From the NCBI GenBank assembly GCA_002305205.1, contig DBQJ01000021.1, positions 6,448-64,438 of the forward strand: a stretch of 57,991 bases of DNA. The letters run 5' to 3'. The translations under genes and the position numbers were made by a program. The DNA comes from a candidate division WWE3 bacterium UBA1397 (lineage in GTDB: Bacteria > Patescibacteriota > WWE3 > UBA101185 > UBA10185). The notes under the pieces were generated by a model. The model saw only the letters and a list, made by a program, of their open reading frames with translations, had not been told where the DNA came from and searched no databases. Numbering within the stretch: position 1 is the stretch's first letter; each line of letters begins with the position of its first letter. This document shows positions 10,306 to 33,890 of the stretch, piece by piece.

Positions 10306-10353
10306 ATTGGCTCCCCATTGTTGTATTTATCCGAAGTTTAATACCCGTATTTG
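10306..10353 (+). repeat. attL-type junction; 48-bp direct repeat copy 1 (core + P' arm of A/C type)
   Basis: attggctccccattgttgtatttatccgaagtttaatacccgtatttg matches 25649-25696 at 45 of 48 positions (hand alignment). Confidence 0.85.
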
Positions 10354-10384: not shown

Positions 10385-10693
10385 ATGTTAGTGAAAACCG
10401 AATACACCTAAACGCTATGACTCGGAGTCCATGAATAACCAATAAATGGGGTCTAGCCGACGAGCGGCGGGAAGAACAGATACTTTGCAGAGTATCCCAG
10501 TAGAACCTGACGGAAGCCCCCGTTATCACAGGCTGAACTATAACCTTGCCAAGTTTCTTGGTTTCAAGAGTAGCCAATGAGCGTCTAACAGCGATGTTGG
10601 ACTAAAAGAGGGTGGTACCACGATATTGCGAAACCTATCGTCCCTCAGCATTATTTCTGTATTTTTACAGGCATAATGCTGGGGGATTTTTTT
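10385..10693 (+). promoter_or_regulatory. T-box leader (tRNA-sensing riboswitch) with intrinsic terminator
   Basis: T-box sequence AGAGGGTGGTACCACG at 10607-10622. F-box-like CCGTTA at about 10519. Two AGAGTA motifs. Terminator hairpin ccctcagcattat/ataatgctggggg (10642-10685) followed by a T-run. It lies immediately upstream of leuS. Confidence 0.75.
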
Positions 10694-10734: not shown

Positions 10735-12591
10735 ATGAAAAAAGAAAATAATGAAAATAGTGTATATGATTTTAAACAGGTAGAAGATAAGTGGTATAAG
10801 CAGTGGTACGGAAATAATATCTACGGTGTTCAGATAGATAGTACCAAGCCCAAGTTTTACTGTTTGGACACTTTTCCTTATCCTTCTGCTGATGGCGTAC
10901 ATATAGGATATGTCAAAAGCTTTGGAGGTATGGATGTTGTAGCCCGTTACAAACGAATGAAGGGTTTTAATGTTCTTTATGCAATGGGTTGGGACACACT
11001 TGGACTTCCAGCAGAAAACTACGCAATTAAAACTGGTATTCACCCAAGAGAAATAACCTACAAAAGCATTAAAAACTATAAGGAGCAGTTTAAGCACTTC
11101 GGTATTAGTTATGACTGGAACAGGGAAATAGATACAGCGGAGCCAATATATTACAGATGGACTCAATGGTTGTTTTTGCAAATGTACAAAAAAGGTTTGG
11201 CATACAAAAAGGAGTTTCCAGTTAATTGGTGCGAAAGCTGTAAAACCGTTATCTCAAACGAACAAGTTGTAGACGGAAAATGTGAAAGGTGCAAAGGTAC
11301 GGTCATACAAAAGCCATTACTGCAATGGTTTTTCAAAGTAAGTGCCTATAAAGAACGCTTGTACAAAGATACAGAAAAGCTTAACTGGGAAGAAAAATAT
11401 CTTAATCCGCACAGGAAATGGATTGAAGGTGTAAGAGATTGGTGCGTATCAAGACAAAGATATTGGGGTCCTCCTATACCAATTATTTATTGCCCAAAAT
11501 GTGGGGAAGTTCCTGTACCTGAAAAAGATTTGCCAGTTTTCTTGCCGATGAATGTAGATTTCACACCTACAGGTGAGCCACCCTTAGCTAAAGTAGACCA
11601 CTTTGTGAACACTACTTGCCCCAGGTGCGGCGAAGCAGCGAAGCGAGAGACTGACACCATGGACACTTTTGTGACTTCTGCATGGTATCAGTTTAGGTTT
11701 ACCGACCCAAATAATGACGATATGTTTGCATCACCTACTCAATTGGGTTATTGGGGTTGTGTCGACCACTATCAAGGAACTATTGAACATATTACAGCAC
11801 ATTTGATATATGCAAGGTTTGTAACGAAAGTTCTTTATGACGAAGGTCTCGTATCTTTTGACGAGCCTTTTCCTAAATACACACCTGTTGGATTACTTGT
11901 GGACAAAAGCGGTGAAAAATACTCTAAAAGATTGGGAAACGCTCCTGATACAAATGAACTGATTGCAAAATATGGTGGCGATTTGTTAAGACTTTCCTGT
12001 CAGTTTATTACCCCTTTTGATGACATCTCTCGCTGGGGAGAATCCGATATTGTAGGTGTTAAAAGGTTCTTTGATAGTGTATGGAACATCTTTGTGACTA
12101 AAGTTACTGATGATGTTGCAGAAGTACCTAGCAAAATAAGCTCTGACTTGAATAGACTTATAGGGGATGTAGAAGAAGCCATTGAAGCAATGAAGTTCAA
12201 TGTGGCAATTAGCAAGATGATGGTTTTTATTGCCTCTCTTAAAGACTTTGATACTGTCCCTGCTGAGGTGTGGGAAACATTTGTGAAACTTATTGCACCC
12301 TTCGCACCATTTGTTGCTGAGGAAATGTGGTCTCGCATGGGGTATACAACATCAGTACACTTAGCAAGTTTTCCGATTGTAAACAAAATCAGCTTGGAAC
12401 AGACTACTGTAAGAGTAAGTATTCAAGTTAATGGCAAACTTAAAGGTGTACTTGACCTTCCAGTAGGTGCTTCAAAAGAAGTTGCAGTTAAGGATTCGTT
12501 AGAAACAGAACGAGTTAGTCAGGTGTTAAAAGACAAGAACTATTCCGTTATTTATGTGCAGGATAAAGTTATTAACTTTGTGACTGAGTAG
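10735..12591 (+). CDS. leuS: leucyl-tRNA synthetase lacking the CP1 editing domain
   Basis: Colinear with bacterial LeuRS (PYPS..HIG., GWD.LGLPAE, NW.ES..TV.SNEQV, RDW.VSRQRYWG, ETDT.DTF, IEH...HL.Y.RF, C-terminal VNGK domain). Only 618 aa: RKWIEG joins directly to VRDWCVSRQRYWG. Confidence 0.85.
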   Translation: MKKENNENSVYDFKQVEDKWYKQWYGNNIYGVQIDSTKPKFYCLDTFPYPSADGVHIGYVKSFGGMDVVARYKRMKGFNVLYAMGWDTLGLPAENYAIKTGIHPREITYKSIKNYKEQFKHFGISYDWNREIDTAEPIYYRWTQWLFLQMYKKGLAYKKEFPVNWCESCKTVISNEQVVDGKCERCKGTVIQKPLLQWFFKVSAYKERLYKDTEKLNWEEKYLNPHRKWIEGVRDWCVSRQRYWGPPIPIIYCPKCGEVPVPEKDLPVFLPMNVDFTPTGEPPLAKVDHFVNTTCPRCGEAAKRETDTMDTFVTSAWYQFRFTDPNNDDMFASPTQLGYWGCVDHYQGTIEHITAHLIYARFVTKVLYDEGLVSFDEPFPKYTPVGLLVDKSGEKYSKRLGNAPDTNELIAKYGGDLLRLSCQFITPFDDISRWGESDIVGVKRFFDSVWNIFVTKVTDDVAEVPSKISSDLNRLIGDVEEAIEAMKFNVAISKMMVFIASLKDFDTVPAEVWETFVKLIAPFAPFVAEEMWSRMGYTTSVHLASFPIVNKISLEQTTVRVSIQVNGKLKGVLDLPVGASKEVAVKDSLETERVSQVLKDKNYSVIYVQDKVINFVTE

Positions 12592-14799: not shown

Positions 14800-15658
14800 A
14801 AGTCCATTATCAAACTGGATAGTGTTTCCAAGAAGCATAGCCAGCTTATATAAAAACGGTGAAATCAACCGAGCAGAGTTTTTCGTATACTGCTACCTGC
14901 GTATTCAATGTAACCCATACGGAATCTGTACAACACATATGGAAGCAATTAGAGATGATGTCTTCGGAAAAGAAGGTGGTAAGAAATCAGTTTCCAAAAA
15001 CTATGTTAATAAAATACTTTTGTCCTTGAAAAGTAAGAGGTTGCTATTTTATTTGGATAGAACTGGGAGGTCAGGTTCGTTTGAGGTTCATTTTCCTGAT
15101 TTTATCGACCCTACCAAGAAAATCACCAGCATCGAACACTTGTTTATCAAGGAGGCAAGTCAGCAGGAGATTGGTGCTGTAGATGACAAAAAGTCAGAGG
15201 ATAGTACAGAGGTTGAAGTAAAAAATCAGAAGTTGGTAGTGCCAGATAATGTTGATTTAGCTATTAAACAGGGTATTAATGAATCTGGAGAGTTCAGAGG
15301 TTATAATAACGATACCGATACTCAAAAGAAGATTGAAAATACCGATTTATCGGTTTCTTATAAAGTAGGAAGCAAAGACAGGGAAAGAACCGATACCGAT
15401 TATGTGTGTAAAAACCCTACCGATAGTTTCATACCGACACTTTATGAGGAAGAAACAGCTAAATCGATAGCTGAAAGCGTTGGAGAAAAATGCATGGATA
15501 GATATCTTGGGCTGATTAAAAAAGGTTATTTCTGGGTTTTGGAGAAAGCATACGGTGAGTACAGCGAAGATGTCGGGAAAGGCAATAAAATAGATGTACC
15601 CGCCGCTTATATAAACGGAATAATTATTAGGATTCTTAAAGAAAGAATCGGAAAGTAA
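14771..15658 (+). CDS. winged-helix-like DNA-binding protein (putative replication/regulatory protein), paralog of 31464-32348
   Basis: 295 aa. The N-terminal 115 aa are clearly homologous to the element C copy (WI.FPR.I.S.YKNGEINR.E......LR.Q.NPYGI...LEAIR.DVFGK...NYVNKILLSLK.KR). C-terminal AYINGIIIRILKE is DnaD-like. Confidence 0.6.
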   Translation: MKKEQENQTESPLSNWIVFPRSIASLYKNGEINRAEFFVYCYLRIQCNPYGICTTHMEAIRDDVFGKEGGKKSVSKNYVNKILLSLKSKRLLFYLDRTGRSGSFEVHFPDFIDPTKKITSIEHLFIKEASQQEIGAVDDKKSEDSTEVEVKNQKLVVPDNVDLAIKQGINESGEFRGYNNDTDTQKKIENTDLSVSYKVGSKDRERTDTDYVCKNPTDSFIPTLYEEETAKSIAESVGEKCMDRYLGLIKKGYFWVLEKAYGEYSEDVGKGNKIDVPAAYINGIIIRILKERIGK

Positions 15659-15682
15659 CAATTTCTGCTTAGTTTTTGAAAT

Positions 15683-17266
15683 ATGTATGGATTAGAAGAA
15701 CTAAAACCAAAAGTTGGAACAAAACTGAAAGCTGTTGATTATGAAAGAGTCAGCACGCCTGGACAGGTTGTAAACGGTCATTCAATGGAGGTGCAGAAAA
15801 AGATGTTCACTACGCTTGTCGAACAGCACGATATTGAGGTTCTTAAAACATTTGAAGACCCTGGACGTTCTGCAAGAGATTTGAATAGGCGTGACATAGA
15901 AGAACTGATGGATTTTTGTGATGATAATGCCGCAGTACTTGATGTTGTTTTTGTACAAGATACTTCACGGCTTTGTCGCAATGTTCAAGACCACTTAGCC
16001 CTCAAAGCCTTCTTGAAGAAGCGTAATATAAAACTTATTCCTTTAGACGGTTATTTTGGAGAGGGAGACGAAGCGGAGTTTGCAGATGTTGTGGTGGCGG
16101 CTATAAATCAGCTGGAAAGCCGTAGAACTGCGAAAAAAACAAAAAGAGTAATGAAGGCTCTTGCTGAGAAGGGTATAAAACCTGGGATGTCAGGGATAGG
16201 CTATCTAAACTCATACCAGAAAGACAAACCCATATACCCAGACCCCGAACGCCGATACTTTATTTATGATATTTACGAGCTATGGTTGACAGGTAATTAT
16301 TCCGTTGCCAGTATCGCTGATATTGAGTTTTCAAAAGGATTTCGTACAAAAAGTGGCGGAAAAGTTCAGAAAAACACAATTACCAATATCCTCAAAAATA
16401 TACTTTATGCAGGTGGTTTGAAATATGATGGCGTAGAATATGAAAAGGCGGCACATGAAGCCATCGTTCCACCTGACTGGTACAACCGCTCTCTTGCTAT
16501 GTTTGAGAAGAAAAACAAAGGTGCCAACCGAAACAGAAAACATACAACCTTATTAGCAGGTTATTGCTACTGCTTAAAATGTGGTCGTCAGATGGCGGCT
16601 GAGTATCACCCACGGGCAAACTACTATTCTTGTGGCAGTTGTGAAAAGACCAATGTACCACTTGAAAAAGTTGACAAGAAAGTGCGGGCTTTCTTTCATG
16701 GTACTGTGTTTTCTGAAAAAGCATTGGAAAATCTACGAAATGTTTTATATGAAGTCAAAGCCGAGCAAGGCATTAGTGTTCCTGAACAACTTAAAACACT
16801 TAGACAAAGGCGAGATATTTTGGATAAAAAAATGAAGCAGCTTGAAGATAAGATGTTTGGTGGTGATGACCTCGTCGATTCCGAAAGACTAAAAGAACGC
16901 TACAAGCCCCTTAAAGAGGAACTTAAACAGGTAGATGAGCAAATAGCCCAGATGGATAAACCCTCAACTACTCTTAAAGATTCTGAGATTGAAAAAGTCA
17001 TCAAAGGTATGCGGAACATTGGTGAGCTTTATGATGCCATGACAAAGATTCAGCAAAAGCAGTTTTTACGCTTTTTTATTTCAAAGGCTTTCTTGGAAAA
17101 GGAACGGCTGATAACGAGTTTTGAGTATGTACCAGAGTTTAAGGCTTTAATATCAAGAGACTTGGTTCGTATAAAGTCCAATTGGCTCGCTTGCTGGAAC
17201 GATTTTCGTACATTAGAAATAGAGAGTTTTGTTTATGAGGAAGCTTTAGCAGTATTAAGCGCATAA
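15683..17266 (+). CDS. large serine recombinase (element A)
   Basis: Resolvase catalytic domain (AVDYERVSTPGQ with the catalytic Ser; DTSRLCR), recombinase domain, Cys4 zinc ribbon (CLKCG...CGSC), and coiled coil. The last 22 codons lie beyond the core at 17191. Confidence 0.9.
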   Translation: MYGLEELKPKVGTKLKAVDYERVSTPGQVVNGHSMEVQKKMFTTLVEQHDIEVLKTFEDPGRSARDLNRRDIEELMDFCDDNAAVLDVVFVQDTSRLCRNVQDHLALKAFLKKRNIKLIPLDGYFGEGDEAEFADVVVAAINQLESRRTAKKTKRVMKALAEKGIKPGMSGIGYLNSYQKDKPIYPDPERRYFIYDIYELWLTGNYSVASIADIEFSKGFRTKSGGKVQKNTITNILKNILYAGGLKYDGVEYEKAAHEAIVPPDWYNRSLAMFEKKNKGANRNRKHTTLLAGYCYCLKCGRQMAAEYHPRANYYSCGSCEKTNVPLEKVDKKVRAFFHGTVFSEKALENLRNVLYEVKAEQGISVPEQLKTLRQRRDILDKKMKQLEDKMFGGDDLVDSERLKERYKPLKEELKQVDEQIAQMDKPSTTLKDSEIEKVIKGMRNIGELYDAMTKIQQKQFLRFFISKAFLEKERLITSFEYVPEFKALISRDLVRIKSNWLACWNDFRTLEIESFVYEEALAVLSA

Positions 17267-18385: not shown

Positions 18386-19435
18386 CTAAGCTTGAGAGCC
18401 AGAAGAGTTTATCGGGGCTTTCCACTCAGGGTCTCCACTAATTAACGAAAAACTATTATCTTCAATTATTTTTATTTGGGGGTTCCCCGAGTCGTTTAGA
18501 AGTGCAGTTTTTCTAATATATAGTTCCCATATCAAGTTACTAAGTTTATTTATATCTGTTTCTGTTAGTTTGTTTTCTCCTTCAGTGGAGAAGTAACTTG
18601 TTAAATCACAAATGAATCCAGAGCTACATAAGGTAGAATCTTTTAAGTCATCAATCCCTATCAGTCTTCCGTGAGATAAAGTCTTAGTGGGGTCTGTAAA
18701 AATAGTGAAAGAATCATAAGTTAAGTTTGGATATGTAATCTTCTTTCTGTTGAGGATTTTCTTGGCAATATTTTCTGATAACTCAAGTTCATTTAGAGAT
18801 GTAGCATAAATATCATAGTTATACTGTCGTAAAAAGGTTAGGCTAGCTTCATTTTTTGCAGGAAATATGGACTTTGCATCTTTAAGTAGCTTTTCTACTG
18901 CTTTAGTTATTAAGTAACCTGGTTTAGAAAACTTACGACCTTGATTATCCGATAAAGCCATTTGGGGGTCTATTGGTCCCAACTCTGCATTGTCGCATAA
19001 GATTATTTTATCTGCTCCTAATGAAACCATAGTTGCAGCACTTTTAGCTAACCTAGGTACTATTACTCTAAACTCTTTTATGTCGTTTCTAGATACATAA
19101 GTTTGGCAAACATTAATTATTCTTTCTGCTGAGGTTGCGTATCCACCACCACTATTTAATATTAGGTCTAATCCATGCAGGTTTGAAGGTGTCCTCAGTA
19201 TATCTTCTATCATTACGGAATCATCATCGTTTATAAAAGAAAACGGAGAACCGTTAGCTGTTGAAGCAAAGTATGTTATGGTCCTTCTTTTAGTTAGAGT
19301 TTCGATATCTTTTATTATTTGGGTACATTTTTTTATGGATGAATCGTAGCTTTTTTGCGTCTGCAACTCTTGCATTAAAGACATTTGTACAGGTAATTGT
19401 TTATTCTGTTGTGGCTGGTTATCGGTGGGTGGCAT
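18386..19435 (-). CDS. SDH-family Clp-fold serine protease
   Basis: ITYFAS...GLDLILNSGGGYATSAERII...VIVPRLAKSAATMVSLGADKIILCDNAELGPIDPQ matches the serine dehydrogenase proteinase / ClpP-class consensus. Confidence 0.7.
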   Translation of the reverse strand: MPPTDNQPQQNKQLPVQMSLMQELQTQKSYDSSIKKCTQIIKDIETLTKRRTITYFASTANGSPFSFINDDDSVMIEDILRTPSNLHGLDLILNSGGGYATSAERIINVCQTYVSRNDIKEFRVIVPRLAKSAATMVSLGADKIILCDNAELGPIDPQMALSDNQGRKFSKPGYLITKAVEKLLKDAKSIFPAKNEASLTFLRQYNYDIYATSLNELELSENIAKKILNRKKITYPNLTYDSFTIFTDPTKTLSHGRLIGIDDLKDSTLCSSGFICDLTSYFSTEGENKLTETDINKLSNLIWELYIRKTALLNDSGNPQIKIIEDNSFSLISGDPEWKAPINSSGSQA

Positions 19436-19505: not shown

Positions 19506-19697
19506 CTATTTGTTTCTAACTTTTTTAATTACTGTTGCCACGATTTCGATTACAAACGCAACAAAAAACAAAAGTGTAATCAATCCTAATGGGAAAAACT
19601 CGGGAAAAATATTGGATATGGTAGCACTAACTAACCATCCGATAAGAAAAACCAACCATCCAAGCTTTTTATTTGTTGGTATTGAAAAATAGCTCAT
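19506..19697 (-). CDS. small two-TM membrane protein
   Basis: 63-aa hydrophobic ORF, in an operon with the flanking minus-strand genes. Confidence 0.45.
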   Translation of the reverse strand: MSYFSIPTNKKLGWLVFLIGWLVSATISNIFPEFFPLGLITLLFFVAFVIEIVATVIKKVRNK

Positions 19698-19706
19698 ATA
19701 ACCCTC

Positions 19707-20168
19707 CTAGTAAAAATATTTATTATCTTCAAAGTATTTCTTATACTCTGTTCTTATATTTTCTAGTCTTACTGTAGCTACATTTGTATTTTGACCAAAT
19801 CCTCTAAGTTCGTACTCTCCTGTAGCTAGTTTATAAATCAAAGCGGTAAACATTTTGTCTGGTTTATTCACAAATATGATTTCAAGTTGTTTTCCTCCTG
19901 CTAAAGAGTTGTTTTCTTCGTATACAATAAAAGGACTTTCATAATAACTATTATCATAATCGCTTAAACCATTAGAAGTTTTACTACTTGATGTTTTTAG
20001 GTATTCATTTAATCGCTCTCTTAAGAACATTGCTTCTGCATTGTTAAAATAAGGGCTTTCATTTGTTGTTATCTGTGAAGGAGTTGGGTTCTTTGTATTA
20101 CTAAGTAAAAGTAATCCGCTAAGAGCCGTAATGCCTATAATTAAGGGTATTATGATTTTCTTTTTCAT
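19707..20168 (-). CDS. secreted/anchored hypothetical protein
   Basis: 153 aa with an N-terminal signal/anchor (MKKKIIIPLIIGITALSGLLLL). Only 4 nt from the upstream gene. Confidence 0.55.
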   Translation of the reverse strand: MKKKIIIPLIIGITALSGLLLLSNTKNPTPSQITTNESPYFNNAEAMFLRERLNEYLKTSSSKTSNGLSDYDNSYYESPFIVYEENNSLAGGKQLEIIFVNKPDKMFTALIYKLATGEYELRGFGQNTNVATVRLENIRTEYKKYFEDNKYFY

Positions 20169-20171
20169 CTT

Positions 20172-20696
20172 TCAGTCTTTTCTACCAATTATGTACAACA
20201 TTAGCATTAAAATCCCATATCCAATCAAAATGATGGTACCGAATATTTGAAACTTATCTAAGAGGATTAAAAAGATGACAATAGGTATAAAAATGATTCC
20301 TATACCTAGGGTAATATGAAGAAGCGTTTTCCAAAAACTTTTTGTGCTAATAAGTGCCGACATTTTACCGATACTTGTTATGCTGACTTCGTGCGTTTCT
20401 TTAAGATAACTTTTATTGTTATTGAAAATACTTTCCCAATTATTTTTAGTACCCGTTTCTTTCCATAAATAATAAACTCCATAGAGTAATAAAAAGACGA
20501 CAACAAAGCTTCCACCTTCTAAAATCTGCCCTACTCCTTGTACTTCTAGCGTTTCATTTTCATGGTTATATCCCCACCCGAATGATTCTCCTAACCAATA
20601 TCTAATCTGATAAAAACCTGAAAACAAATAAATAATCAGTACAAGCCAAAATATCCATTTTATTAATCTTTCACCTAAACTATCTTTTCGCGGCAT
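20172..20696 (-). CDS. integral membrane protein (4 TM), first gene of the element B minus-strand operon
   Basis: 174-aa ORF. Its start codon directly abuts the structured leader. Confidence 0.6.
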   Translation of the reverse strand: MPRKDSLGERLIKWIFWLVLIIYLFSGFYQIRYWLGESFGWGYNHENETLEVQGVGQILEGGSFVVVFLLLYGVYYLWKETGTKNNWESIFNNNKSYLKETHEVSITSIGKMSALISTKSFWKTLLHITLGIGIIFIPIVIFLILLDKFQIFGTIILIGYGILMLMLYIIGRKD

Positions 20697-20806
20697 AAAA
20701 AAGGGACCACTTCCTTGTCCCTAGCCGCGAAGCATTGAGTCCAGAGGGAAGTAGCCCCTTTTCGGACTCAACGCTTTTTAAGCGTATACTTTTTTCGCGG
20801 CTAGGT
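20697..20806 (-). ncRNA. structured 5' leader, copy 1 (candidate cis-regulatory RNA, unassigned class)
   Basis: On the minus-strand RNA: P1 CCUAGCCGCGAA/UUCGCGGCUAGG; P2 GCGUUGAGUCC/GGACUCAAUGC. The loop AAAAGGGGCUACUUCC pairs with GGAAGUGGUCCCUUUU directly before the AUG. The G-U pairs exist only on the minus-strand reading. Confidence 0.55.
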
Positions 20807-21152
20807 TGTAATGAGCCCATTATCTCACTATAAGCATTTTCTGACTATATTTTTTCTATAAAGGGAAAGCGTATAAACTACACGTAGCGATTGAGATTAT
20901 TTCAATAGGTTTGTATTAATATAACTGTTATTATTCCTTGTAGTTAAGGGATAGGTATTAAAATACATTAAAAATAAAAAAATGCTTTATAAAGGGTATA
21001 GATTACATACTCTTTAACCTATATATCCTATTATTTACACCTATTATTTTCCATCAAAGGTGTGATGCTATGACCCGATTAAGACCAACGGGGGTGTGTA
21101 AACTTGAGCTACCCGTACCCTATATAACCTGAAATAGTATAATTGCCTTATT

Positions 21153-23994: not shown

Positions 23995-24087
23995 TTACTG
24001 TGCGTTCAGGAATACTATTGGATTTTTTTATGCCTCCATTGGTACAGAACCCAATAGTTCTGAACGCGACCAGTGGGGGCATATTTT

Positions 24088-25701
24088 ATGAAAAAAGCAT
24101 TAATATTTTGTAGAGTAAGTTCAAAGGAACAAGAAGAAACGGGCTACTCTTTACCTGCCCAGAAAAAACTTCTTGAAGATTACTCAATCCAACACGACTA
24201 TATAGTTGCCAAAGTATTTTCCATATCAGAATCCGCTAGCGGTGAAAAACAAAGAAAAATATTTAATGAGATGTTAGCTTACCTCGAGAAGAATCACATA
24301 GATATTTTAGTAGTTGAAAAAACTGACCGTCTTACAAGAAATCATCGGGATGCTGTTGAAGTAGATAAATGGATAAATAAGGATTCAAATAGACAAGTTC
24401 ATTTTGTTAAAGAAAACTTTGTTCTACATAAGGACTCAAAATCTAATGAAAAGTTTATATGGAACATTAAGGTTTCAGTTGCTCAATATTACATTGATAA
24501 CTTGAGTGAGGAAGTTAAAAAGGGACAGAAAGAAAAGCTTTCACAAGGTTGGCTACCTACAAAACCGCCCATAGGATACAAAACAATTGGTGAAAAAGGA
24601 CATCGTATACATGTAGTTGATGAAATCACAAAACCATTAGCAATCAAAATGTTCAAATACTATGTTTCAGGTAATTATTCTTTAGAGAGACTCGCCACTA
24701 AGTTATATGAGGAGGGTTTGAGGTCCGTTAATGGTAAGAAGGTTCCTAAAAGTAGAATCCATGAATATTTATCCGACCCATTTTACATTGGTATGAATAG
24801 GTGGAACGGTAAGCAAAGTAATGGTAATCAAGAAACATTTATAGATAAGGATATATTCAACAAAGTCCAGTTACTGCTAAAAGGCAAAACAACACCAAAG
24901 GTTAATAAACATGATTTTCCATTTAAGGGACAGGTAAAATGTGCTGAGTGTAAAGGTTTAGTAACTTGGGAAATCCAAAAAGGTACTAATTATGGTCATT
25001 GTAACCATTACAGACCATGTTCACAACTAAAGTGGGTAAAAGAAAAGAACTTGGAAAATCAAGTAAAGCCATCTATAGCAGCTCTTAAGGTGAAAAATGA
25101 ACGGTTGCTGGATTGGATACGTAGGGCATTAAAAGAAACCCATTACGAGGAATCACGACAATATGAGAATGTATCCAAAAGCCTCCAGGAAAGAGACGAA
25201 CAGCTTAAAAAGAGATTAAGTGCTCTTTATATCGACAAACTAGATGGAAAGATAACTGAAGATTTCTATCAGGAAAAGTTTCAGGAGTTTACAGGCGAAA
25301 GAAACGAACTAGTAGAGCAAAGAAAGAAGCTCAATACTAAAGATAATAGCTTTTATGAGAAAACTACTGCTTTATACGATGTTGCTCAAAAAGGGATTGA
25401 TATATACGAAGCATCTAAAGAGTTTAGGAAACGCCGATTAATAAAACTTATTTTTACTGATATGACCCTTAATAACGGAATCCTTGATTTTGCATATACC
25501 AAGCCATATAGAATGTTACGCAGGGCTGTGGAAGAAACTAACGGTTCGAAAATAGCTGAAAACCCTACTTTTATGGAAAATATTTTCGAACTTAAGGATT
25601 TTGGCGATGTTAAAGCAAAAATGGAGTCTTTAGGCGTTGATTGTTCTAATTGGCTCCCCATTGTTGTATTTATCCGAAGTTTGATACCTGTATTGGTATA
25701 A
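24088..25701 (+). CDS. large serine recombinase (element B)
   Basis: ALIFCRVSSKEQ (catalytic Ser), EKTDRLTRN, recombinase domain, zinc ribbon CAECKG...CNHY..C, and coiled coil. The ORF crosses the core at 25649. Confidence 0.9.
   Translation: MKKALIFCRVSSKEQEETGYSLPAQKKLLEDYSIQHDYIVAKVFSISESASGEKQRKIFNEMLAYLEKNHIDILVVEKTDRLTRNHRDAVEVDKWINKDSNRQVHFVKENFVLHKDSKSNEKFIWNIKVSVAQYYIDNLSEEVKKGQKEKLSQGWLPTKPPIGYKTIGEKGHRIHVVDEITKPLAIKMFKYYVSGNYSLERLATKLYEEGLRSVNGKKVPKSRIHEYLSDPFYIGMNRWNGKQSNGNQETFIDKDIFNKVQLLLKGKTTPKVNKHDFPFKGQVKCAECKGLVTWEIQKGTNYGHCNHYRPCSQLKWVKEKNLENQVKPSIAALKVKNERLLDWIRRALKETHYEESRQYENVSKSLQERDEQLKKRLSALYIDKLDGKITEDFYQEKFQEFTGERNELVEQRKKLNTKDNSFYEKTTALYDVAQKGIDIYEASKEFRKRRLIKLIFTDMTLNNGILDFAYTKPYRMLRRAVEETNGSKIAENPTFMENIFELKDFGDVKAKMESLGVDCSNWLPIVVFIRSLIPVLV
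25649..25696 (+). repeat. 48-bp direct repeat copy 2 (core + P' arm), inside the 3' end of the element B recombinase gene
   Basis: attggctccccattgttgtatttatccgaagtttgatacctgtattgg. See copy 1. Confidence 0.85.
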
Positions 25702-28242: not shown

Positions 28243-29364
28243 TTAGTTTGTAAGGTTATATTCAATAAAAGAAGAATCATCATATTTTCCATTCTGCATC
28301 CTATGAGAGATTCCATCTGATTTTAGCTTAACCTCGACCTTTAGTTTTCCATTAGCATTTTGAAAATCTTGCGGTGTTACTTTATACAGAAAGTACGGTT
28401 TTTCGGAAAAAGCATTAGCTCCTCTGGTTTGTGTATAGAAAGCAGTAAAATCCGGCGAGTTAGATGAGAATAAATAGTACAGTTTCTTATCCTCTTTTAA
28501 GTTTGTTCCGGTAGCAGCGATAAAAAGATAATCTCCAGCCTTCAGGTTTGTTGATGAAGTTGTAACCGTGTATTTCTCCGGACCCGTGTAACCATTTGAT
28601 GCAGATTGTTTCACAATGGTTCCTAAATCATCGTACACCTCACTAATAATTGGGTACTGTTGGTCATTGATACCGTAATAAACTTGACTATCTTCCGCAT
28701 TAGTTTCCTTTTCTCCGGCTAGCAGTTCCTTTATTGTTGGTTTATATCTGTTGTTTATGGCTTGTTGGTTAAATGCAGAATAATCTGGATTTTGCTCAAG
28801 ATTGTTTTCGATATTAAAATCTGTGTTTGCTTTGTTTAAGGTGTTCCAACTAGCCATTTTTGCCGGATAGGTTTCGTTAGCGTATTTATTCCACATTTCA
28901 TCTGTCATCTGGTTGTTGTAATAGGCACGCATATTATCAAGATATTCTTTATCTAACGCATAAAGTTGTTTTTTTTCGTCTAGCCGGTTGTTGATTAGCT
29001 CTGTGAACTTCTCCCAAGCCTGCGGGTCTATCTTTGCCGCTTGTTCTGTTAAATCAACGGATTTTTTAAGGTTAGTATTTAAGTTGTTTTCAAAAAGGTT
29101 TATAGCTTCTAATCCTTTTTCAGAACGGATTATAGTTCCCTTAACATAGTCGCTAATTGCTAGGTCTTTTATTGAATAAATTGACGCTGCTTCGGCTGAT
29201 TGGTGAAGCAAGTCTCTGGCATTGTTAATATCGGCAAATACTCGCTTTTGCTGATAAGCATCACGGGCGTTCAAATAAGTACCCGCTACAAACAGCCCTG
29301 CAAAACCTAAACAAAAAACAACAAATATAACTCCAAGTATTTTCAAGATTTTCTTAACTTTCAT
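28243..29364 (-). CDS. N-terminally anchored extracytoplasmic protein
   Basis: 373 aa with a single N-terminal TM. Its start overlaps the upstream gene's stop by 4 nt. Confidence 0.55.
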   Translation of the reverse strand: MKVKKILKILGVIFVVFCLGFAGLFVAGTYLNARDAYQQKRVFADINNARDLLHQSAEAASIYSIKDLAISDYVKGTIIRSEKGLEAINLFENNLNTNLKKSVDLTEQAAKIDPQAWEKFTELINNRLDEKKQLYALDKEYLDNMRAYYNNQMTDEMWNKYANETYPAKMASWNTLNKANTDFNIENNLEQNPDYSAFNQQAINNRYKPTIKELLAGEKETNAEDSQVYYGINDQQYPIISEVYDDLGTIVKQSASNGYTGPEKYTVTTSSTNLKAGDYLFIAATGTNLKEDKKLYYLFSSNSPDFTAFYTQTRGANAFSEKPYFLYKVTPQDFQNANGKLKVEVKLKSDGISHRMQNGKYDDSSFIEYNLTN

Positions 29365-29819
29365 TTTAGAGCCTCCTTTTTGAATAAAGAAAATAAATAG
29401 AAAAGATAAAAAGATGCAGCCAAATCTAACGGCACCCAGGTGCTTCTTGGAAGTTCCGGAACAACAAATGGATTAAATAAAACAAGAATGGAGATTAAAC
29501 CAAATAACCTAATGTCTGAAACATACTTTTTATACCTTACAAGAAGGTAGGAACCTATCACGATAGTGAAAAGTCGCAGGGCATCGTAATAATCAAAATC
29601 GTAATCGTCCGCTTCAAATGGGAGCACCGCCAACAGATACATACCACATAGCGGTAACAAGCATAATTGTGCAAGTTTGTTTAGGTTATTTTTAGTAAAT
29701 AACGATGAAATAAAGTGCTTTATCTTAATAAAATTATCTCGAAATAACAGCACAACTACAGGGATTCCAATGAAGAATAAAATAGGCAATATAGTGTTGT
29801 ATACCGTACTTTCTGACAT
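29361..29819 (-). CDS. integral membrane protein (4 TM), first gene of the element C minus-strand operon
   Basis: 152-aa hydrophobic ORF whose start abuts the structured leader. Confidence 0.55.
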   Translation of the reverse strand: MSESTVYNTILPILFFIGIPVVVLLFRDNFIKIKHFISSLFTKNNLNKLAQLCLLPLCGMYLLAVLPFEADDYDFDYYDALRLFTIVIGSYLLVRYKKYVSDIRLFGLISILVLFNPFVVPELPRSTWVPLDLAASFYLFYLFSLFKKEALK

Positions 29820-29930
29820 AACAAAGGGACTACCTTCTTCGTAGCCCTAGCTTGTCAGCATTGAACCCTCGGAAAGGTAGCCCCTTCGTAGGTTCAATGC
29901 CTTTTAAGTCGGCGTGACTGACAAGCTAGG
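29820..29930 (-). ncRNA. structured 5' leader, copy 2 (same architecture as 20697-20806)
   Basis: P1 CCUAGCUUGUCAG/CUGACAAGCUAGG; P2 GCAUUGAACC/GGUUCAAUGC. The loop AAGGGGCUACCUU pairs with AAGGUAGUCCCUU just before the AUG. A TATAAT box lies 14 nt upstream (29950-29945, minus strand). Confidence 0.55.
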
Positions 29931-30143
29931 TTTTTACTTCTCTGATTATATCGTCATTAGGCTATATAGCATAGGATTTTAATAAAATGTGTAAGGATTA
30001 CACCCTTTTTGCCTATTTAGCCTATTCAAAAATATAAGTGCAAAGTGTATGGATATAACCGGTTATGTGTATTTTGAGCCTCGAAAATTGAACTATCCCT
30101 ACCCCATACACCCCTAATTATTGTTACGATGTAAAATAAAACT

Positions 30144-31492: not shown

Positions 31493-32348
31493 GGAAAACC
31501 TTTTATCTGATTGGATAGCATTTCCCAGAAAAATCTCAAGTATGTACAAGAATGGTGAGATAAACAGACCGGAGTACCTTGTTTGTTTACACTTACGGCT
31601 TCAAGCTAATCCCTATGGAATAAGCTCTACTTGCCTAGAGGCAATAAGAAATGATGTGTTTGGAAAGAGTACGGGTCATAAAGGTGTAACTCTAAATTAT
31701 GTAAATAAAATACTACTTTCCTTAAAGCGTAAGAGGATGTTGTACTATCAAGACAGGGCTGGGAGGTCAGGTTCGTTTGAGATTCGCTTTGCCGATTTTA
31801 TTGACCCTAACAAGAACATTACTGATATAAAACACCTATTTGAAAGTGACTATAGTAAGAGAAGTAGCACACCTTTGAGAGTATCCGTATCAGAGGTTAC
31901 TGCAGAACTCAAAGAAGAAAATCAGAGGTTTGAAAATCCAATAAATGAGGGGGTGAAAACTAACGAAGATGTTGGTGCAAAGGGAATAATCACAGGTTAT
32001 AATAATGATACCGATATACAAAACAAGATTGAAAATACCGATATATCGGTTTCTTATAAAAAGGGAGATGGGGAAAAACCACTACCCGAGTATGTGTGTA
32101 GAAACCCAACCGATAGTTTCGCACCGAACGGGTATGAGGAAAACACAGCTAAAGAAATTGCGGGTGGGATTGGCGAAAAATGTATGGACCGATACCTAGC
32201 CCTTATACGGAAGGGTCAGTTTGGTGTTTTGGAAAAAGCGTTTGGAGAGTTTAAGGAAGACTTGGAGAATGGAAAAAACCCTAGTGATAAGCCCGCTTAC
32301 CTTAACAGCATAATTACAAGAATGCTTAAAGAAAAAATTGGAAAATAG
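31464..32348 (+). CDS. winged-helix-like DNA-binding protein, paralog of 14771-15658
   Basis: 294 aa. See 14771-15658. Confidence 0.6.
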   Translation: MANAKQIKNEENLLSDWIAFPRKISSMYKNGEINRPEYLVCLHLRLQANPYGISSTCLEAIRNDVFGKSTGHKGVTLNYVNKILLSLKRKRMLYYQDRAGRSGSFEIRFADFIDPNKNITDIKHLFESDYSKRSSTPLRVSVSEVTAELKEENQRFENPINEGVKTNEDVGAKGIITGYNNDTDIQNKIENTDISVSYKKGDGEKPLPEYVCRNPTDSFAPNGYEENTAKEIAGGIGEKCMDRYLALIRKGQFGVLEKAFGEFKEDLENGKNPSDKPAYLNSIITRMLKEKIGK

Positions 32349-32354
32349 TTTTAT

Positions 32355-33890
32355 ATGTATGGTTTAGAAGAACTAAAACCAAAAATAGGAACAAGATTAA
32401 AAGCCGTCGATTACGAGCGTGTAAGCACGCCTGGTCAGGTAATAAACGGGCATTCGATGGAAGTGCAAAGAAAACTTTTTACAACTCTAGTAGAGCAACA
32501 CGATATTGAAGTTCTCAAAACTTTTGAGGACCCAGGGAAATCTGCCAGAAATCTTAATCGAAGGGACATTGAGGAGCTTATGGATTTTTGTGATGACAAC
32601 TCTGACCTTTTGGATGTTGTTTTTGTGCAGGATACCTCAAGGCTTTGTAGAAATGTAGCCGACCATTTAGCCTTAAAAGCATTTCTGAAAAAAAGAGATA
32701 TAAAACTCATCCCGCTTGATGGTTACTTTGGCGATTCTGATGAGGGTGAGTTTGCGGATATTGTTGTTGCAGCAATTAACCAGCTTGAAAGTAGAAGAAC
32801 AGGTAAGAAAACAAAGCGTGTAATGCTAGCACTCGCAGAAAAGGGTTTGAAACCAGGAATGGCTCCACTTGGCTACCTAAACTCCTATCAAAAGGATGTT
32901 CCGATTAAACCAGACCCCGAAAAGAAGCATTTTATTTACTGTATTTATGAGATGTGGCTAACCGGAAGCTACTCTGTAAAAGCAATCGCTGATATCCAAT
33001 TTGAAAAGGGCTTTCGTTCTAAAGAAGGTAAGCAAGTTCAAAAAAATACGATAACAAATATCCTAAAAAATATACTCTATGCTGGTGGATTATTTTACGA
33101 CGGAATAAAATATGAAAAAGCGATGCACGAAGGTATAGTTCCTTTGGATTGGCATTACCGTTCTCTTGCTATGTTTGAAAAGAAAAACAAAGGTGCAAAT
33201 CGAAATAGAAAATATGTAACGCTGTTAGCCGGATATGCCACTTGTCTGAAGTGTGGAAATCAAATGTTTGGTGAATATCATCCAAAAGGTAATTATTATC
33301 GCTGTCAGCATTGTGCAAAAACTAATGTTTCCCTTGAAGATGCCGACGATAAAGTTTCAGCCTTCTTTCACGGAACCGTATTTACAGAAGAAGCCTTGCG
33401 TAAGTTAAGGGATGCGCTCTACGAGGTCAAAAAGGACCAAGGCTCGAGTGTTCCAGAACAGCTAAAGACTTTAAGGCAACGAAGGGACGCTCTGGACAAG
33501 AAAATGCGAGTAATTGAGGACAAGATGTTCTCCGGTGATGAGTTAGTGGATTCTGAACGCTTAAAAGGTAGATATCAGCCACTAAAGGATGAGTTGAGGA
33601 TTGTGGAAGGTCAAATTAAAGACCTAGATAAGCCTTCTACCAATCTTAAAGATTCCGAGATTGAGAAGATTATCAAAGGTTTGAGAAACATTGGTGACCT
33701 TTACGATGCAATGACCAAGCCACAACGAAAGCAGTTTATAAGGTTTTTTATCTCAAAAGCATTTCTGGAGAAGGAGCGGGTTGTAACGAGTTTTGAGTTC
33801 GTACCAGAGTTTGAGGCTTTAGTTACAAGGGATTTAGTTCGTATAAGGGCTAATTGGCTCCCCCGCGTGGATTCGAACCACGAACCTTGA
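32355..33890 (+). CDS. large serine recombinase (element C), 3' end antisense to tRNA-Asn
   Basis: 56 of the first 61 residues are identical to the element A enzyme (hand count), with the same domain layout. The ORF ends PRVDSNHEP, encoded by the complement of the tRNA T-arm. Confidence 0.9.
   Translation: MYGLEELKPKIGTRLKAVDYERVSTPGQVINGHSMEVQRKLFTTLVEQHDIEVLKTFEDPGKSARNLNRRDIEELMDFCDDNSDLLDVVFVQDTSRLCRNVADHLALKAFLKKRDIKLIPLDGYFGDSDEGEFADIVVAAINQLESRRTGKKTKRVMLALAEKGLKPGMAPLGYLNSYQKDVPIKPDPEKKHFIYCIYEMWLTGSYSVKAIADIQFEKGFRSKEGKQVQKNTITNILKNILYAGGLFYDGIKYEKAMHEGIVPLDWHYRSLAMFEKKNKGANRNRKYVTLLAGYATCLKCGNQMFGEYHPKGNYYRCQHCAKTNVSLEDADDKVSAFFHGTVFTEEALRKLRDALYEVKKDQGSSVPEQLKTLRQRRDALDKKMRVIEDKMFSGDELVDSERLKGRYQPLKDELRIVEGQIKDLDKPSTNLKDSEIEKIIKGLRNIGDLYDAMTKPQRKQFIRFFISKAFLEKERVVTSFEFVPEFEALVTRDLVRIRANWLPRVDSNHEP

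What the first reader, a model, noticed from the sequence alone, without database searches (positions are those of the whole stretch)
20697..20806. Unassigned structured leader RNA with an SD-sequestering loop (copy 1), supported by compensatory changes against copy 2
Reading the minus strand as RNA gives: CCUAGCCGCGAA-[19 nt, ...CUUAAAAA]-GCGUUGAGUCC-G-AAAAGGGGCUACUUCC-CUCU-GGACUCAAUGC-UUCGCGGCUAGG-GACAA-GGAAGUGGUCCCUUUU-UU-AUG.

Features of the fold:
- P1 is 12 bp.
- P2 is 11 bp and includes one G-U pair.
- The P2 loop can pair over 16 positions with the stretch that contains the likely SD (AAGGAAG) and ends 2 nt before the start codon.

Three of these pairs are G-U, which would be A-C/C-A mismatches on the other strand. 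That argues for an RNA transcribed with the operon. Against copy 2, the inner part of P1 is completely different yet still complementary (CGCGAA/UUCGCG versus UUGUCAG/CUGACAA). P2 and the loop-tail helix also change in a compensated way.

A 13-16-bp loop-tail helix is too long to coexist fully with P2 as a simple H-type pseudoknot, so alternative conformers (a switch) are likely. A GATAAT -10 box lies 12 nt upstream of P1. I cannot match this to fluoride, preQ1, SAM-II/V, guanidine, ZTP, c-di-GMP or NAD-II consensus sequences from memory.
Basis: seen in the sequence. Interest (0 to 1): 0.7.

Follow-up and report, generated by a model that had tools for sequence, protein, structure and literature searches.

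The report
New structured mRNA leader, CPR elements
A roughly 115-nt, unclassified, strongly folded RNA leader sits just before the first gene of an accessory operon in mobile elements and phages of tiny uncultured (Patescibacteria-type) bacteria, and one of its loops can pair with the ribosome-binding region, so it most likely controls translation of that operon.

Summary
**Observation:** confirmed to the base.
- Copy 1 is window 20694-20805 (-). Copy 2 is 29817-29930 (-).
- Both fold far better than shuffles (z = -5.4 and -5.3).
- I collected 14 distinct versions, in six sequence types. They come from Patescibacteria-type MAGs (WWE3, Saccharibacteria), metagenomes and two IMG/VR contigs.

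**Structure:**
- Each version has its own -10 box 12-18 nt upstream.
- Each has a three-way junction of P1, a small P1a hairpin and P2.
- Each has an invariant loop, AAGGGGCUAC.
- That loop complements an invariant tail, GU(A/G)GUCCCUUU, plus the purine-rich SD-like tract ending 1-3 nt before AUG.

**Covariation:**
- 98.8% of cells are paired, against 84.5% in shuffles.
- 22 of 43 pairs change on both sides.
- There are 56 G·U cells against 2 A·C cells, which fixes the mRNA-sense strand as the folding strand.
- The loop-tail helix is 99.5% paired, with three covarying pairs.
- Two rival local hairpins perform no better than shuffles.

**Classification:** no Rfam 15 family matches, even at E <= 10.

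**Interpretation:** the downstream first gene differs between copies, so the leader is a portable promoter-leader module. Most likely it is a cis-acting translational control element. The loop sequesters the SD/start region as a pseudoknot, and a linker-tail hairpin that displays the SD is the competing state. The trigger is unknown, and a metabolite riboswitch looks unlikely.

**Verdict:** a new RNA family of a known general kind.

The parts
20819..20847 (-). Copy 1 promoter-like site: TAGTCA, 17-nt spacer, TG-extended GATAAT (-10 at 20824-20819).
   Evidence: All 14 homologues have a -10-like hexamer ending 12-18 nt before P1.
20794..20805 (-). Copy 1, P1 5' strand: CCUAGCCGCGAA.
   Evidence: P1 is 100% paired, and 9 of its 12 pairs change on both sides.
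20780..20791 (-). Copy 1, P1a small hairpin: AAGU-AUAC-GCUU, the third arm of the junction.
   Evidence: Its sequence differs in each type but stays complementary: 5 of 5 pairs covary.
20764..20774 (-). Copy 1, P2 5' strand: GCGUUGAGUCC.
   Evidence: P2 is 97.4% paired, and 5 of its 11 pairs change on both sides.
20747..20762 (-). Copy 1, loop L2 pairing segment: AAAAGGGGCUACUUCC. It holds the invariant AAGGGGCUAC followed by an anti-SD-like pyrimidine run.
20732..20742 (-). Copy 1, P2 3' strand: GGACUCAAUGC.
20720..20731 (-). Copy 1, P1 3' strand: UUCGCGGCUAGG. It continues directly from P2, so the two helices can stack coaxially.
20715..20721 (-). Copy 1, linker: GG of the P1 3' end plus GACAA. 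GGGAC can pair with GUCCC of the tail to form hairpin P3, which leaves the SD-like tract in its loop.
   Evidence: -6.4 kcal/mol here, and -9 to -11.5 in types B, C and D.
20699..20714 (-). Copy 1, tail: GGAAGUGGUCCCUUUU. It comprises the SD-like purines, the invariant GU(A/G)GUCCCUUU, and the start of the U-run.
20172..20696 (-). Copy 1, gene 1 (AUG at 20696-20694): a 174-aa predicted membrane protein. It opens an operon with 19707-20168 (secreted fam0 protein), 19506-19697, and 18386-19435 (SDH/ClpP-like protease).
29945..29950 (-). Copy 2, -10 box: TATAAT.
29820..29930 (-). Copy 2 leader. Segments: P1 29930-29919 with 29857-29846; P1a 29918-29908; P2 29900-29890 with 29868-29858; L2 pairing segment 29887-29873; linker 29845-29838; tail 29837-29823.
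   Evidence: P3 of this copy is flagged terminator-like.
28243..29819 (-). Copy 2 operon: a 152-aa DUF6804 membrane protein (29361-29819) and a 373-aa secreted protein (28243-29364, ATGA overlap). Neither is related to the first gene of copy 1.

Best explanation
**What it is.** A cis-acting 5' leader RNA of about 110-120 nt. It controls translation initiation of the first gene, and through coupling the rest, of the accessory operon of Patescibacteria-type integrative elements and phages.

**How it is made.** Transcription starts at a dedicated (extended) -10 promoter a few nt upstream of P1.

**The scaffold.** P1 and P2 form a coaxial rod of about 23 bp. The small hairpin P1a branches from its 5' strand, giving a three-way junction. 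This rod presents the 19-22-nt loop L2.

**The OFF state.** L2 carries AAGGGGCUAC followed by a pyrimidine, anti-SD-like run. It base-pairs with the purine SD-like tract, GUAGUCCCUUU and the first U's before the AUG. This pseudoknot hides the ribosome landing site.

**The ON state.** The tail can instead pair with the linker just 3' of P1, which is a near-copy of L2 (GGGCUAC, GGACUAC or GGGAC). That hairpin, P3, displays the SD-like tract in its loop and leaves the U-rich spacer and the AUG free.

**What flips it.** Unknown. My inference is that whatever occupies or removes L2 shifts the tail from L2 to the linker. Candidates are a trans-acting RNA or protein of the element or host, or cleavage of the rod (for example by RNase III). 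A small metabolite seems less likely.

**Shown:**
- the helices and their covariation;
- the folding strand;
- the promoter and AUG placement;
- the modular context.

**Inferred:**
- SD function of the purine tract;
- repression by the pseudoknot;
- the P3 ON state;
- the trigger.
For: **Structure is real**
- 98.8% of 582 cells are paired, against 84.5% in shuffles (0 of 500 reach it), and against 31-56% when partners are slid.
- 22 of 43 pairs change on both sides. By helix: P1 9 of 12, P1a 5 of 5, P2 5 of 11.
- RNAalifold independently recovers the outer part of P1 and all of P2.

**It is RNA of the mRNA strand**
- 56 G·U against 2 A·C cells.
- No open frame is conserved across the leader.

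**It is a leader**
- All 14 versions have a -10 box ending 12-18 nt before P1.
- In all 14, an AUG follows 1-3 nt after the tail.
- In L156 the AUG opens a 47-codon ORF whose stop overlaps the next gene's start (AUGA), next to GAGGAGG.

**Loop-tail pairing**
- 14-18 bp and -24 to -27 kcal/mol in every version.
- 99.5% paired against 97.6% in shuffles (0 of 500).
- Three pairs in the SD-like tract change on both sides, passing through U·G intermediates.
- The rival local hairpins inside L2 and inside the tail are no better than shuffles: 90.3% against 89.9%, reached by 200 of 500 shuffles.
- Two changes break those rival hairpins but keep the pseudoknot: y1 = A in W1 and L130, and x3 = C in L154. 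Here x1-x4 are the four loop bases after CUAC, and y1-y4 are their tail partners just 5' of GURG.

**Competing hairpin P3**
- It exists in all six types despite different linkers and registers.

**The function ends at the start codon**
- Near-identical type B leaders precede five unrelated first genes.
- The first genes of copy 1 and copy 2 are unrelated.
Against: - No expression or probing data exist.
- The SD-like tract is 12-13 nt from the AUG, whereas clear SDs in this window lie 4-7 nt away. Most genes in the window have no SD at all, so the SD role is not certain.
- Nine of the 15 loop-tail pairs never vary. The covarying ones are pyrimidine-purine positions, where three of the four combinations pair, so support for the pseudoknot is modest (both-sided pairs: 15 of 500 shuffles reach the observed count).
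- A 15-bp helix cannot form fully in a 20-nt loop closed by P2 with 2-nt connectors. Only part of it can coexist with P2.
- P3 is weak (about -3 kcal/mol) in L137 and in types E and F.
- The alignment used for pair counting was fitted by hand to the structure. It is essentially ungapped in P1, P2 and the pseudoknot.
- Diversity is limited: 14 sequences in six types, found partly with patterns that required the loop and tail words. That could exaggerate their invariance.
Confidence: 0.55

Rival explanations
1. Constitutive 5' module with no switching. The 5'-terminal rod protects the mRNA from 5'-end-dependent decay. The loop-tail pairing simply sets a fixed, low translation rate that is insulated from whatever cargo gene lies downstream. 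On this reading the leader is a portable expression cassette, and it also serves as a homologous-recombination hinge between backbone and cargo.
For: - P1 starts a few nt after the predicted transcription start.
- The same leader precedes unrelated first genes.
- L123 is a mosaic: type-A-like in P1 and P2, type-B-like in loop and tail.
- No conserved junction nucleotides suggest a ligand pocket. J2 is UUAAAA in types A-D but CGA or CGG in types E and F.
Against: - Conserved complementarity of the linker to the tail (P3), together with the L2/linker twin arrangement, is what one expects of two alternative states.
- The strict invariance of the loop and tail cores, while every stem drifts freely, suggests more than a simple occluding helix.
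Confidence: 0.15
2. A small-molecule or ion riboswitch. The three-way junction plus pseudoknot would be the aptamer, and ligand binding would stabilise or disrupt the SD-sequestering pseudoknot.
For: - Complex architecture: a three-way junction plus a pseudoknot with an invariant core that contains an invariant G·U.
- It is a GC-rich leader (46-52% GC) in a window of 34.6% GC.
- SD-sequestering pseudoknots are typical of several riboswitch classes (established knowledge: preQ1-II, SAM-II, SAM-V).
Against: - No Rfam riboswitch family matches, even at E <= 10.
- Outside the two pseudoknot strands, no unpaired nucleotide is conserved across all six types.
- The downstream genes are unrelated membrane or secreted proteins and defence-like cargo, not a coherent metabolic or transport function.
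- Distribution is narrow and confined to mobile elements.
Confidence: 0.12
3. A transcription attenuator or small-RNA generator. The linker-tail hairpin P3, or the loop-tail helix, followed by the U-run would act as an intrinsic terminator just before the AUG. The alternative pairing would decide between read-through and release of a roughly 115-nt RNA.
For: - P3 of copy 2 (GGGCUAC-GAAGAAG-GUAGUCC followed by CUUUGUU) is called terminator-like by the scan.
- Types A, B, D and L123 have a GC-rich P3 directly followed by 5-6 U.
Against: - P3 is weak and set 3 nt back from the U-run in types E and F, and it is broken in L137.
- Copy 1 is not called terminator-like on this strand.
- The U-run is only 4-6 nt long and doubles as the spacer to a strictly conserved AUG.
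- The covarying pairs involve the SD-like purines, which a terminator does not need.
Confidence: 0.1
4. A trans-acting regulatory RNA. The leader, or a processed fragment of it, would use the anti-SD-like L2 loop to pair with the identical tail of sister elements or with other mRNAs. That could produce cross-talk or exclusion between co-resident elements.
For: - Two elements in the same window carry identical loop and tail cores.
- Loop and tail are invariant across all types while the stems drift, as expected if they must match partners in other molecules.
Against: - In the loci carrying the motif, every extra tail-like or loop-like word looks like chance: one 10-mer inside a coding region in L126, and two stray 8-mers.
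- The strict placement in front of an AUG is explained by action in cis.
Confidence: 0.05
5. A DNA-level element, such as a recombination site, a single-strand origin, or a protein operator made of inverted repeats.
For: - It lies in the divergent control region of elements that carry large serine recombinases.
- The outer P1 arms (CCTAGC/GCTAGG) are conserved in four of the six types.
- Cargo differs immediately to one side of it.
Against: - 56 G·U against 2 A·C cells, so the duplex and the opposite strand would carry mismatches.
- Orientation and distance to the AUG are fixed in all instances.
- The outer P1 sequence is itself replaced by compensated sequences in types D, E and F, so it is not a sequence-specific operator.
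- The motif stays intact inside integrated elements, so it is not attP.
- In the IMG/VR contigs it follows a terminase-like gene, and no recombinase is seen on those short contigs.
Confidence: 0.03

Closest known systems
SD-sequestering pseudoknot riboswitches (preQ1-II, SAM-II, SAM-V, guanidine-III)
   Same: - A 5' leader in which a hairpin loop pairs with the downstream SD region as a pseudoknot, so that RNA folding gates translation.
- The pseudoknot strands are conserved while the stems covary.
   Different: - No covariance-model match.
- Much larger: a 23-bp rod plus a third arm.
- The loop-tail complementarity, at 14-18 bp, is too long for a compact H-type knot.
- No conserved junction nucleotides and no coherent gene function; confined to mobile elements.
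IncIalpha/IncB plasmid repZ/repA leader pseudoknot controlled by antisense RNA (established knowledge, from memory)
   Same: - A mobile-element mRNA leader in which a stem-loop's loop pairs with a sequence next to the ribosome-binding site.
- A leader ORF can couple translation to the next gene, as the short ORFs do in L155 and L156.
- A trans-acting RNA that binds the loop flips the state, which is the kind of trigger I favour here.
   Different: - In those plasmids the pseudoknot activates translation and is only a few bp long.
- Here the pairing covers the SD-like tract itself, which predicts repression.
- No antisense promoter or antisense RNA has been shown here.
- The downstream genes are not replication genes.
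Phage leaders processed by RNase III (lambda N leader, T7 early sites) and RBS-occluding 5' UTRs opened by RNase III (E. coli adhE) (established knowledge, from memory)
   Same: - A phage or prophage mRNA leader with a near-continuous duplex of more than 20 bp close to the 5' end.
- Cutting that duplex would detach an inhibitory segment from the ribosome-binding site.
   Different: - Cleavage has not been tested.
- The rod carries a branch (P1a).
- No sequence similarity.
5'-terminal stabiliser stem-loops (E. coli ompA 5' UTR, B. subtilis phage SP82 and ermC leaders) (established knowledge, from memory)
   Same: A very stable helix starting within a few nt of the 5' end of an mRNA.
   Different: Those elements need no loop-to-RBS complementarity, no third arm, and no competing linker hairpin.
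RNA thermometers (FourU, ROSE)
   Same: SD purines can pair with a downstream or upstream U/C-rich run. The tail can fold on itself as AAGGAGG/CCUUUUU.
   Different: - That local hairpin has no support beyond chance.
- No Rfam match.
- The main helices, at -50 kcal/mol, are far too stable to melt physiologically.

Membership tests
Any Rfam 15 family (4227 models) | Covariance-model score at or above the family's gathering score. | tested here: not met
   - The whole window yields only four tRNAs.
- Copy 1 ±120 nt at E <= 10 gives only noise. The best hit is a plastid psbJ 3' UTR at 17 bits against a gathering score of 53.
- Copy 2 gives nothing.
- Loci carrying types C, D, E and F give nothing at E <= 1.
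Pseudoknot riboswitches (preQ1-II, SAM-II/V, fluoride, ZTP, guanidine-III, c-di-GMP-II, NAD-II) | Family-specific conserved pocket nucleotides and architecture, as encoded in the Rfam models. | tested here: not met
   No match, even at E <= 10.
Pseudoknot riboswitches (general kind) | Association with genes for the synthesis, transport or detoxification of a single ligand. | tested here: not met
   The first genes belong to at least seven unrelated families of small membrane proteins, secreted proteins or short ORFs. Further cargo is RM systems, an SDH protease, AlbA_2 and SocA.
Pseudoknot riboswitches (general kind) | Ligand-dependent structural change. | not testable with these tools
   Needs in-line probing or SHAPE with candidate ligands.
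Cis-regulatory SD-sequestering leader (general kind) | Transcribed as the 5' UTR of the regulated gene, on the same strand, with a fixed position relative to the start codon. | tested here: met
   - A -10 box ends 12-18 nt before P1 in 14 of 14 versions.
- An AUG follows 1-3 nt after the tail in 14 of 14.
- The promoter and transcription start are predicted, not mapped.
Cis-regulatory SD-sequestering leader (general kind) | Conserved base-pairing between an upstream segment and the SD/start region, supported by covariation. | tested here: met
   - 99.5% paired, with 3 pairs changing on both sides. 0 of 500 shuffles reach the observed percentage paired or the covariation score.
- Support is modest because 9 of the 15 pairs are invariant.
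Cis-regulatory SD-sequestering leader (general kind) | The purine tract functions as the SD, and pairing lowers translation. | not testable with these tools
   - AAGGAGG or GAGGAGG is present in L126, L134, L153 and L154.
- The spacing to the AUG is 12-13 nt, against 4-7 nt for the clear SDs of the window.
Intrinsic terminator / attenuator | GC-rich hairpin immediately followed by a U-run, conserved across the family. | tested here: inconclusive
   - Called in copy 2 but not in copy 1 on this strand.
- P3 is -9 to -11.5 kcal/mol in types B, C and D, and only about -3 in L137, E and F, where it is offset from the U-run.
RNA thermometer (FourU / ROSE type) | A weak local hairpin pairing the SD with a nearby pyrimidine run. 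| tested here: not met
   The local tail hairpin is no better than shuffled or slid controls, and it is broken (A·C) in W1 and L130. There is no Rfam match.
Integron attC/attI-like or other single-strand DNA recombination site | Conserved recombination boxes (for example GTTRRRY), an associated tyrosine integrase, and a position at cassette boundaries irrespective of translation signals. | tested here: not met
   - No such boxes in the sequence.
- The neighbouring recombinases are large serine recombinases.
- The motif is always fused to an AUG on the sense strand.
- The G·U asymmetry is 56 to 2.
Self-cleaving ribozymes common in phages (twister, hammerhead, pistol, hatchet, HDV-like) | Match to the family model and its catalytic core. 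| tested here: not met
   No Rfam match at E <= 10.

The most novel reading that the evidence does not exclude
The leader is a genuine two-state RNA switch specific to Patescibacteria phages and integrative elements. Its invariant loop, with its invariant G·U, would be read by a dedicated trans factor: an element- or host-encoded RNA or protein, or a ligand bound within the pseudoknot. That factor would decide when a prophage's surface-protein and defence cargo is translated. The same roughly 150-bp promoter-leader cassette would also serve as the recombination hinge through which unrelated cargo operons are swapped exactly at the start codon.
Probability: 0.2. Interest if true: 0.75.

Novelty: new variant of a known kind. 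Interest (0 to 1): 0.6.

Why it matters
**A rare regulatory handle in Patescibacteria (CPR).** These bacteria are largely uncultured, and I found no literature on lineage-specific cis-regulatory RNAs or on the regulation of their mobile elements.

**What this motif offers:**
- It is well defined, supported by covariation, and carries a specific, testable pairing scheme.
- It sits at the control point of the accessory operon of prophage-like elements. That operon encodes surface proteins and defence-like genes.
- It is compact (about 115 nt) and modular, and it functions in front of unrelated genes. That makes it attractive as an expression or regulatory part for the few tractable Saccharibacteria systems.
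- It can serve as a marker for finding this class of elements in metagenomes.

**If a trigger exists,** it would reveal how such elements time cargo expression.

**If no trigger exists,** the motif is still a clean natural example of a portable translation-insulating leader.

Tried and rejected
2. **Too strict a pattern.** The 3'-half pattern found nothing in IMG/VR.
3. **Search that did not depend on loop or tail.** A scan with the type E/F P1 words returned only chance hits in GC-rich viral contigs, besides L155 and L156. A GTGG-tail variant pattern found nothing.
4. **Protein route in IMG/VR.** The downstream fam0 protein has no relatives there.
5. **fam0 does not require the motif.** Several fam0 loci lack it: L135, L139, L141, L145, L148 and L160-162.
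6. **CDS start pairing with the P1 3' strand.** This is significant only in type A (W1 and L130, 0 of 200 shuffles) and absent elsewhere, so it is not a family feature.
7. **Local hairpins inside L2 and inside the tail as the "real" pairings.** They are no better than controls.
8. **Extra tail-like targets in trans.** There is only one 10-mer, inside a coding region in L126.
9. **Coding explanation.** There are stops in all frames in most versions.
10. **Other databases.** blastn against INPHARED phages and PLSDB plasmids found no match. Four literature searches found nothing relevant. PHROGs and Pfam gave no function for the flanking backbone genes or for fam0.
Full report
**1. Checking the observation**

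- RNAfold gives P1 and P2 stacked, with a small side hairpin. The energy is -51.9 kcal/mol against -31.7 ± 3.7 for shuffles, so z = -5.4.
- The second copy, at 29817-29930(-), folds the same way, with z = -5.3.
- The two copies are 80% identical. The inner part of P1 is entirely replaced but still complementary, and P2 carries two doubly compensated pairs.
- The 16-nt stretch of the P2 loop is fully complementary to the stretch ending 2 nt before the AUG, at -26.2 kcal/mol.
- A covariance model built from the two copies finds no third copy in the window.

**2. Is it a known RNA?**

No.

- Rfam 15 at gathering thresholds finds only tRNAs in the window.
- Permissive scans (E <= 10) of both copies return only noise.
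- Loci carrying the most divergent relatives return nothing at E <= 1.

**3. Relatives elsewhere**

- DNA-pattern scans found the motif in MAGs of candidate division WWE3 and of Saccharibacteria.
- They also found it in nine metagenome contigs.
- Looking up contigs that encode homologues of a downstream protein added more, including a new sequence type D.
- A scan of IMG/VR added two still more divergent types, E and F.
- In all there are 14 distinct sequences in six types.
- The nearest full-length relatives of the LeuRS-like protein at 10735-12591 that carry a source name are mostly labelled Patescibacteria.

**4. Anatomy and covariation**

I aligned the 14 sequences by hand into the segments listed below. 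I loaded this alignment with N as a gap placeholder, and MAFFT kept it column for column.

Segments, 5' to 3':
- P1 5' strand
- P1a hairpin
- junction J2
- P2 5' strand
- loop L2
- P2 3' strand
- P1 3' strand
- linker
- tail
- spacer
- AUG

Results for the full structure:

| Measure | Observed | Control |
|---|---|---|
| Cells forming a standard pair | 98.8% | 84.5% in shuffles (0 of 500 reach it) |
| Same, partners slid by 1-3 columns | | 31-56% |
| Pairs changed on both sides | 22 of 43 | |

- P1 is 100% paired, and 9 of its 12 pairs covary. This includes its outer part, which is CCUAGC/GCUAGG in types A-C but CUUAGC/GCUAAG, AUCCGC/GCGGAU and CUCAGC/GCUGAG in types D, E and F.
- All 5 pairs of the small P1a hairpin covary. 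P1a has a different sequence in every type.
- 5 of the 11 pairs of P2 covary.
- RNAalifold, run on the model-derived alignment, independently predicts the outer part of P1 and all of P2.
- G·U cells outnumber A·C cells 56 to 2, so the folding strand is the sense strand of the downstream genes.
- No reading frame is conserved across the leader.
- Caveat: the alignment was fitted to the structure. It has no gaps in P1, P2 or the loop-tail columns apart from one placeholder (L137, in P2), so there is little room for bias.

**5. The loop-tail interaction**

- The loop core AAGGGGCUAC and the tail core GU(A/G)GUCCCUUU are invariant in all six types, even though every stem has drifted.
- Their duplex is 14-18 bp and -24 to -27 kcal/mol everywhere.
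- The four loop positions after CUAC, and their partners just 5' of GUAG in the purine-rich SD-like tract, do vary:
  - U-A, U·G, C-G at the first position;
  - U-A, C-G at the second;
  - C-G, U·G, U-A at the third.
- The helix is 99.5% paired. No shuffle reaches its percentage paired or its covariation score, and 15 of 500 reach its three both-sided pairs.
- These are pyrimidine-purine positions, so the support is real but modest.
- I tested the obvious rivals: a hairpin within L2 (AAGGGG/CCUUUC) and a hairpin within the tail (AAGGAGG/CCUUUUU). Together they score 90.3% paired against 89.9% in shuffles.
- Two natural changes break those hairpins while preserving the loop-tail pairs.
- Energetically, the P1/P2 fold (-50 to -55 kcal/mol) beats a fold in which L2 and the tail form an ordinary long hairpin (-35 to -42). 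The tail must therefore dock on a pre-formed loop, as a pseudoknot.
- The connectors to P2 are only 2 nt and 2-5 nt long, so a 15-bp helix cannot form completely while P2 is closed.

**6. A competing hairpin**

- In all six types, the linker just 3' of P1 is complementary to the tail core. It is GGGAC in type A; GGGCUAC or GGACUAC in types B and D; GGGACUA in type C; and ACUAC in types E and F.
- This pairing gives a local hairpin, P3, whose loop is always the SD-like purine tract.
- P3 is worth:
  - -9 to -11.5 kcal/mol in types B, D and L123;
  - -6.4 in type A;
  - about -3 in L137, E and F.
- The linker is thus a near-twin of L2, and the two compete for the same tail.
- That overlap of constraints also explains why the loop and tail are frozen in sequence.
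- In copy 2, P3 followed by CUUUGUU is flagged terminator-like. This property is not conserved across the family, so I rank attenuation below translational control.

**7. Context**

- Every version has its own -10 box: TATAAT in 10 of 14, and TG-extended in several. It ends 12-18 nt before P1.
- In every version an AUG follows 1-3 nt after the tail.
- The window carries three large serine recombinases (15683-17266, 24073-25701, 32355-33890).
- It also carries a 46-nt direct repeat at 10306-10351 and 25649-25694.
- In addition, a tRNA-Asn gene is overlapped by the 3' end of the third recombinase gene.
- Together these look like a tandem array of integrative elements.
- In all loci with enough flank, the leader lies in a divergent control region:
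  - On one side are backbone genes ending in a serine recombinase, 1-5 kb away.
  - On the other side are the leader and an operon.
- That operon consists of:
  - a variable first gene (at least seven unrelated families of small membrane proteins or short ORFs);
  - usually a secreted protein family with a C-terminal "LAGGKE...PDK...YELRGF" domain;
  - defence-like cargo, including restriction-modification systems, an SDH/ClpP-like protease, AlbA_2 and SocA.
- The first genes of copy 1 and copy 2 are unrelated.
- Leaders of type B that are about 95% identical or more precede five different first genes.
- In the two IMG/VR contigs the leader follows a terminase-large-subunit-like gene and opens a 33- or 47-codon ORF. 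In L156 the stop of that ORF overlaps the start of the next gene (AUGA), beside a GAGGAGG.
- The conserved module therefore ends at the start codon, which fits a role in translation initiation.

**8. Weak points**

- Most ORFs in this window have no SD-like tract, and many have a TATAAT-like box within 25 nt of the start.
- The clear SDs lie 4-7 nt from their starts. The leader's purine tract is 12-13 nt from its AUG.
- The tract reaches AAGGAGG or GAGGAGG in four versions, so an SD role is plausible but unproven.
- The pseudoknot core might also act by changing the effective SD-to-AUG distance. I cannot exclude this reading.
- Nothing identifies the trigger.
- Outside the two pseudoknot strands, no unpaired nucleotide is conserved across all types, and the downstream genes share no function. 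I therefore consider a metabolite riboswitch unlikely.
- I favour a macromolecular input (an RNA or protein that binds L2, or cleavage of the 23-bp rod), or no switching at all.

**9. Verdict**

- It is a new family of structured mRNA leader. It is so far confined to mobile elements and phages of Patescibacteria-type bacteria, and it belongs to the known general kind of SD/start-sequestering cis-regulators.
- Its architecture is distinctive: a long coaxial rod with a side arm, a long loop-tail pseudoknot with an invariant core, and a twin linker that offers an alternative SD-displaying hairpin.

Noticed in passing
window 10306-10351 and 25649-25694; recombinase genes 15683-17266, 24073-25701, 32355-33890; tRNA-Asn 33855-33929: A 46-nt direct repeat (95.7% identical) has its second copy at the 3' end of the middle serine-recombinase gene. 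The third recombinase gene overlaps tRNA-Asn by 36 nt. Modules 14807-17188 and 31503-33860 are 69.5% identical. Together this looks like a tandem array of two or three integrative elements with att-like repeats.
   Followed up: partly
window 10735-12591 (+): A 618-aa LeuRS-like class I tRNA ligase. It lacks the editing domain (PF13603) that the full-length Patescibacteria LeuRS hits carry. It lies between the 46-nt repeats, so it may be element cargo or a truncated paralogue.
   Followed up: partly
window 10641-10686: An inverted repeat with 21-nt arms (86% complementary, 4-nt loop), about 50 nt upstream of the LeuRS-like gene.
   Followed up: no
window 40309-40384 (+): ARAGORN calls a tRNA-Ile with anticodon TAT. 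From memory, this is uncommon in bacteria, which usually decode AUA with a modified CAT tRNA. Two tRNA-Met genes lie nearby (41816-41889, 41956-42031).
   Followed up: no
whole window (48 long ORFs): Only about a third of the ORFs have any SD-like tract within 25 nt of the start. Many have a TATAAT-like box immediately upstream, which suggests frequent leaderless or very short-leader mRNAs. Window GC is 34.6%.
   Followed up: partly
window 20686-20696 and 20794-20801 (also L130): In type A leaders, the P1 5' strand words GCCGCGAA(AA) recur at codons 1-4 of gene 1. They can pair with the P1 3' strand (-15.6 kcal/mol, 0 of 200 shuffles). This is absent from the other types.
   Followed up: yes
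window 19707-20168 (-); L122 3247-4335; L123 3807-4283; alignment A5: A secreted or membrane-anchored protein family with a conserved C-terminal "LAGGKE..I.F..PDK.F...Y....G.YELRGF" domain. It has 40 homologues in the large protein collection and no Pfam or PHROG match. It usually sits second in the leader-controlled operon, but it also occurs without the leader.
   Followed up: partly
L156 655-796 (-); L155 2-130 (-): In the two IMG/VR contigs, the AUG after the leader opens only a 47- or 33-codon ORF. In L156 its stop overlaps the next gene's start (AUGA), beside GAGGAGG, which suggests translational coupling through a leader ORF.
   Followed up: partly
L126 1599-1608 (-): A second exact copy of the tail 10-mer GTAGTCCCTT lies in codons 6-9 of the fam0 gene, 558 nt downstream of the leader's own tail. 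It is probably chance, and it appears only in this locus.
   Followed up: partly
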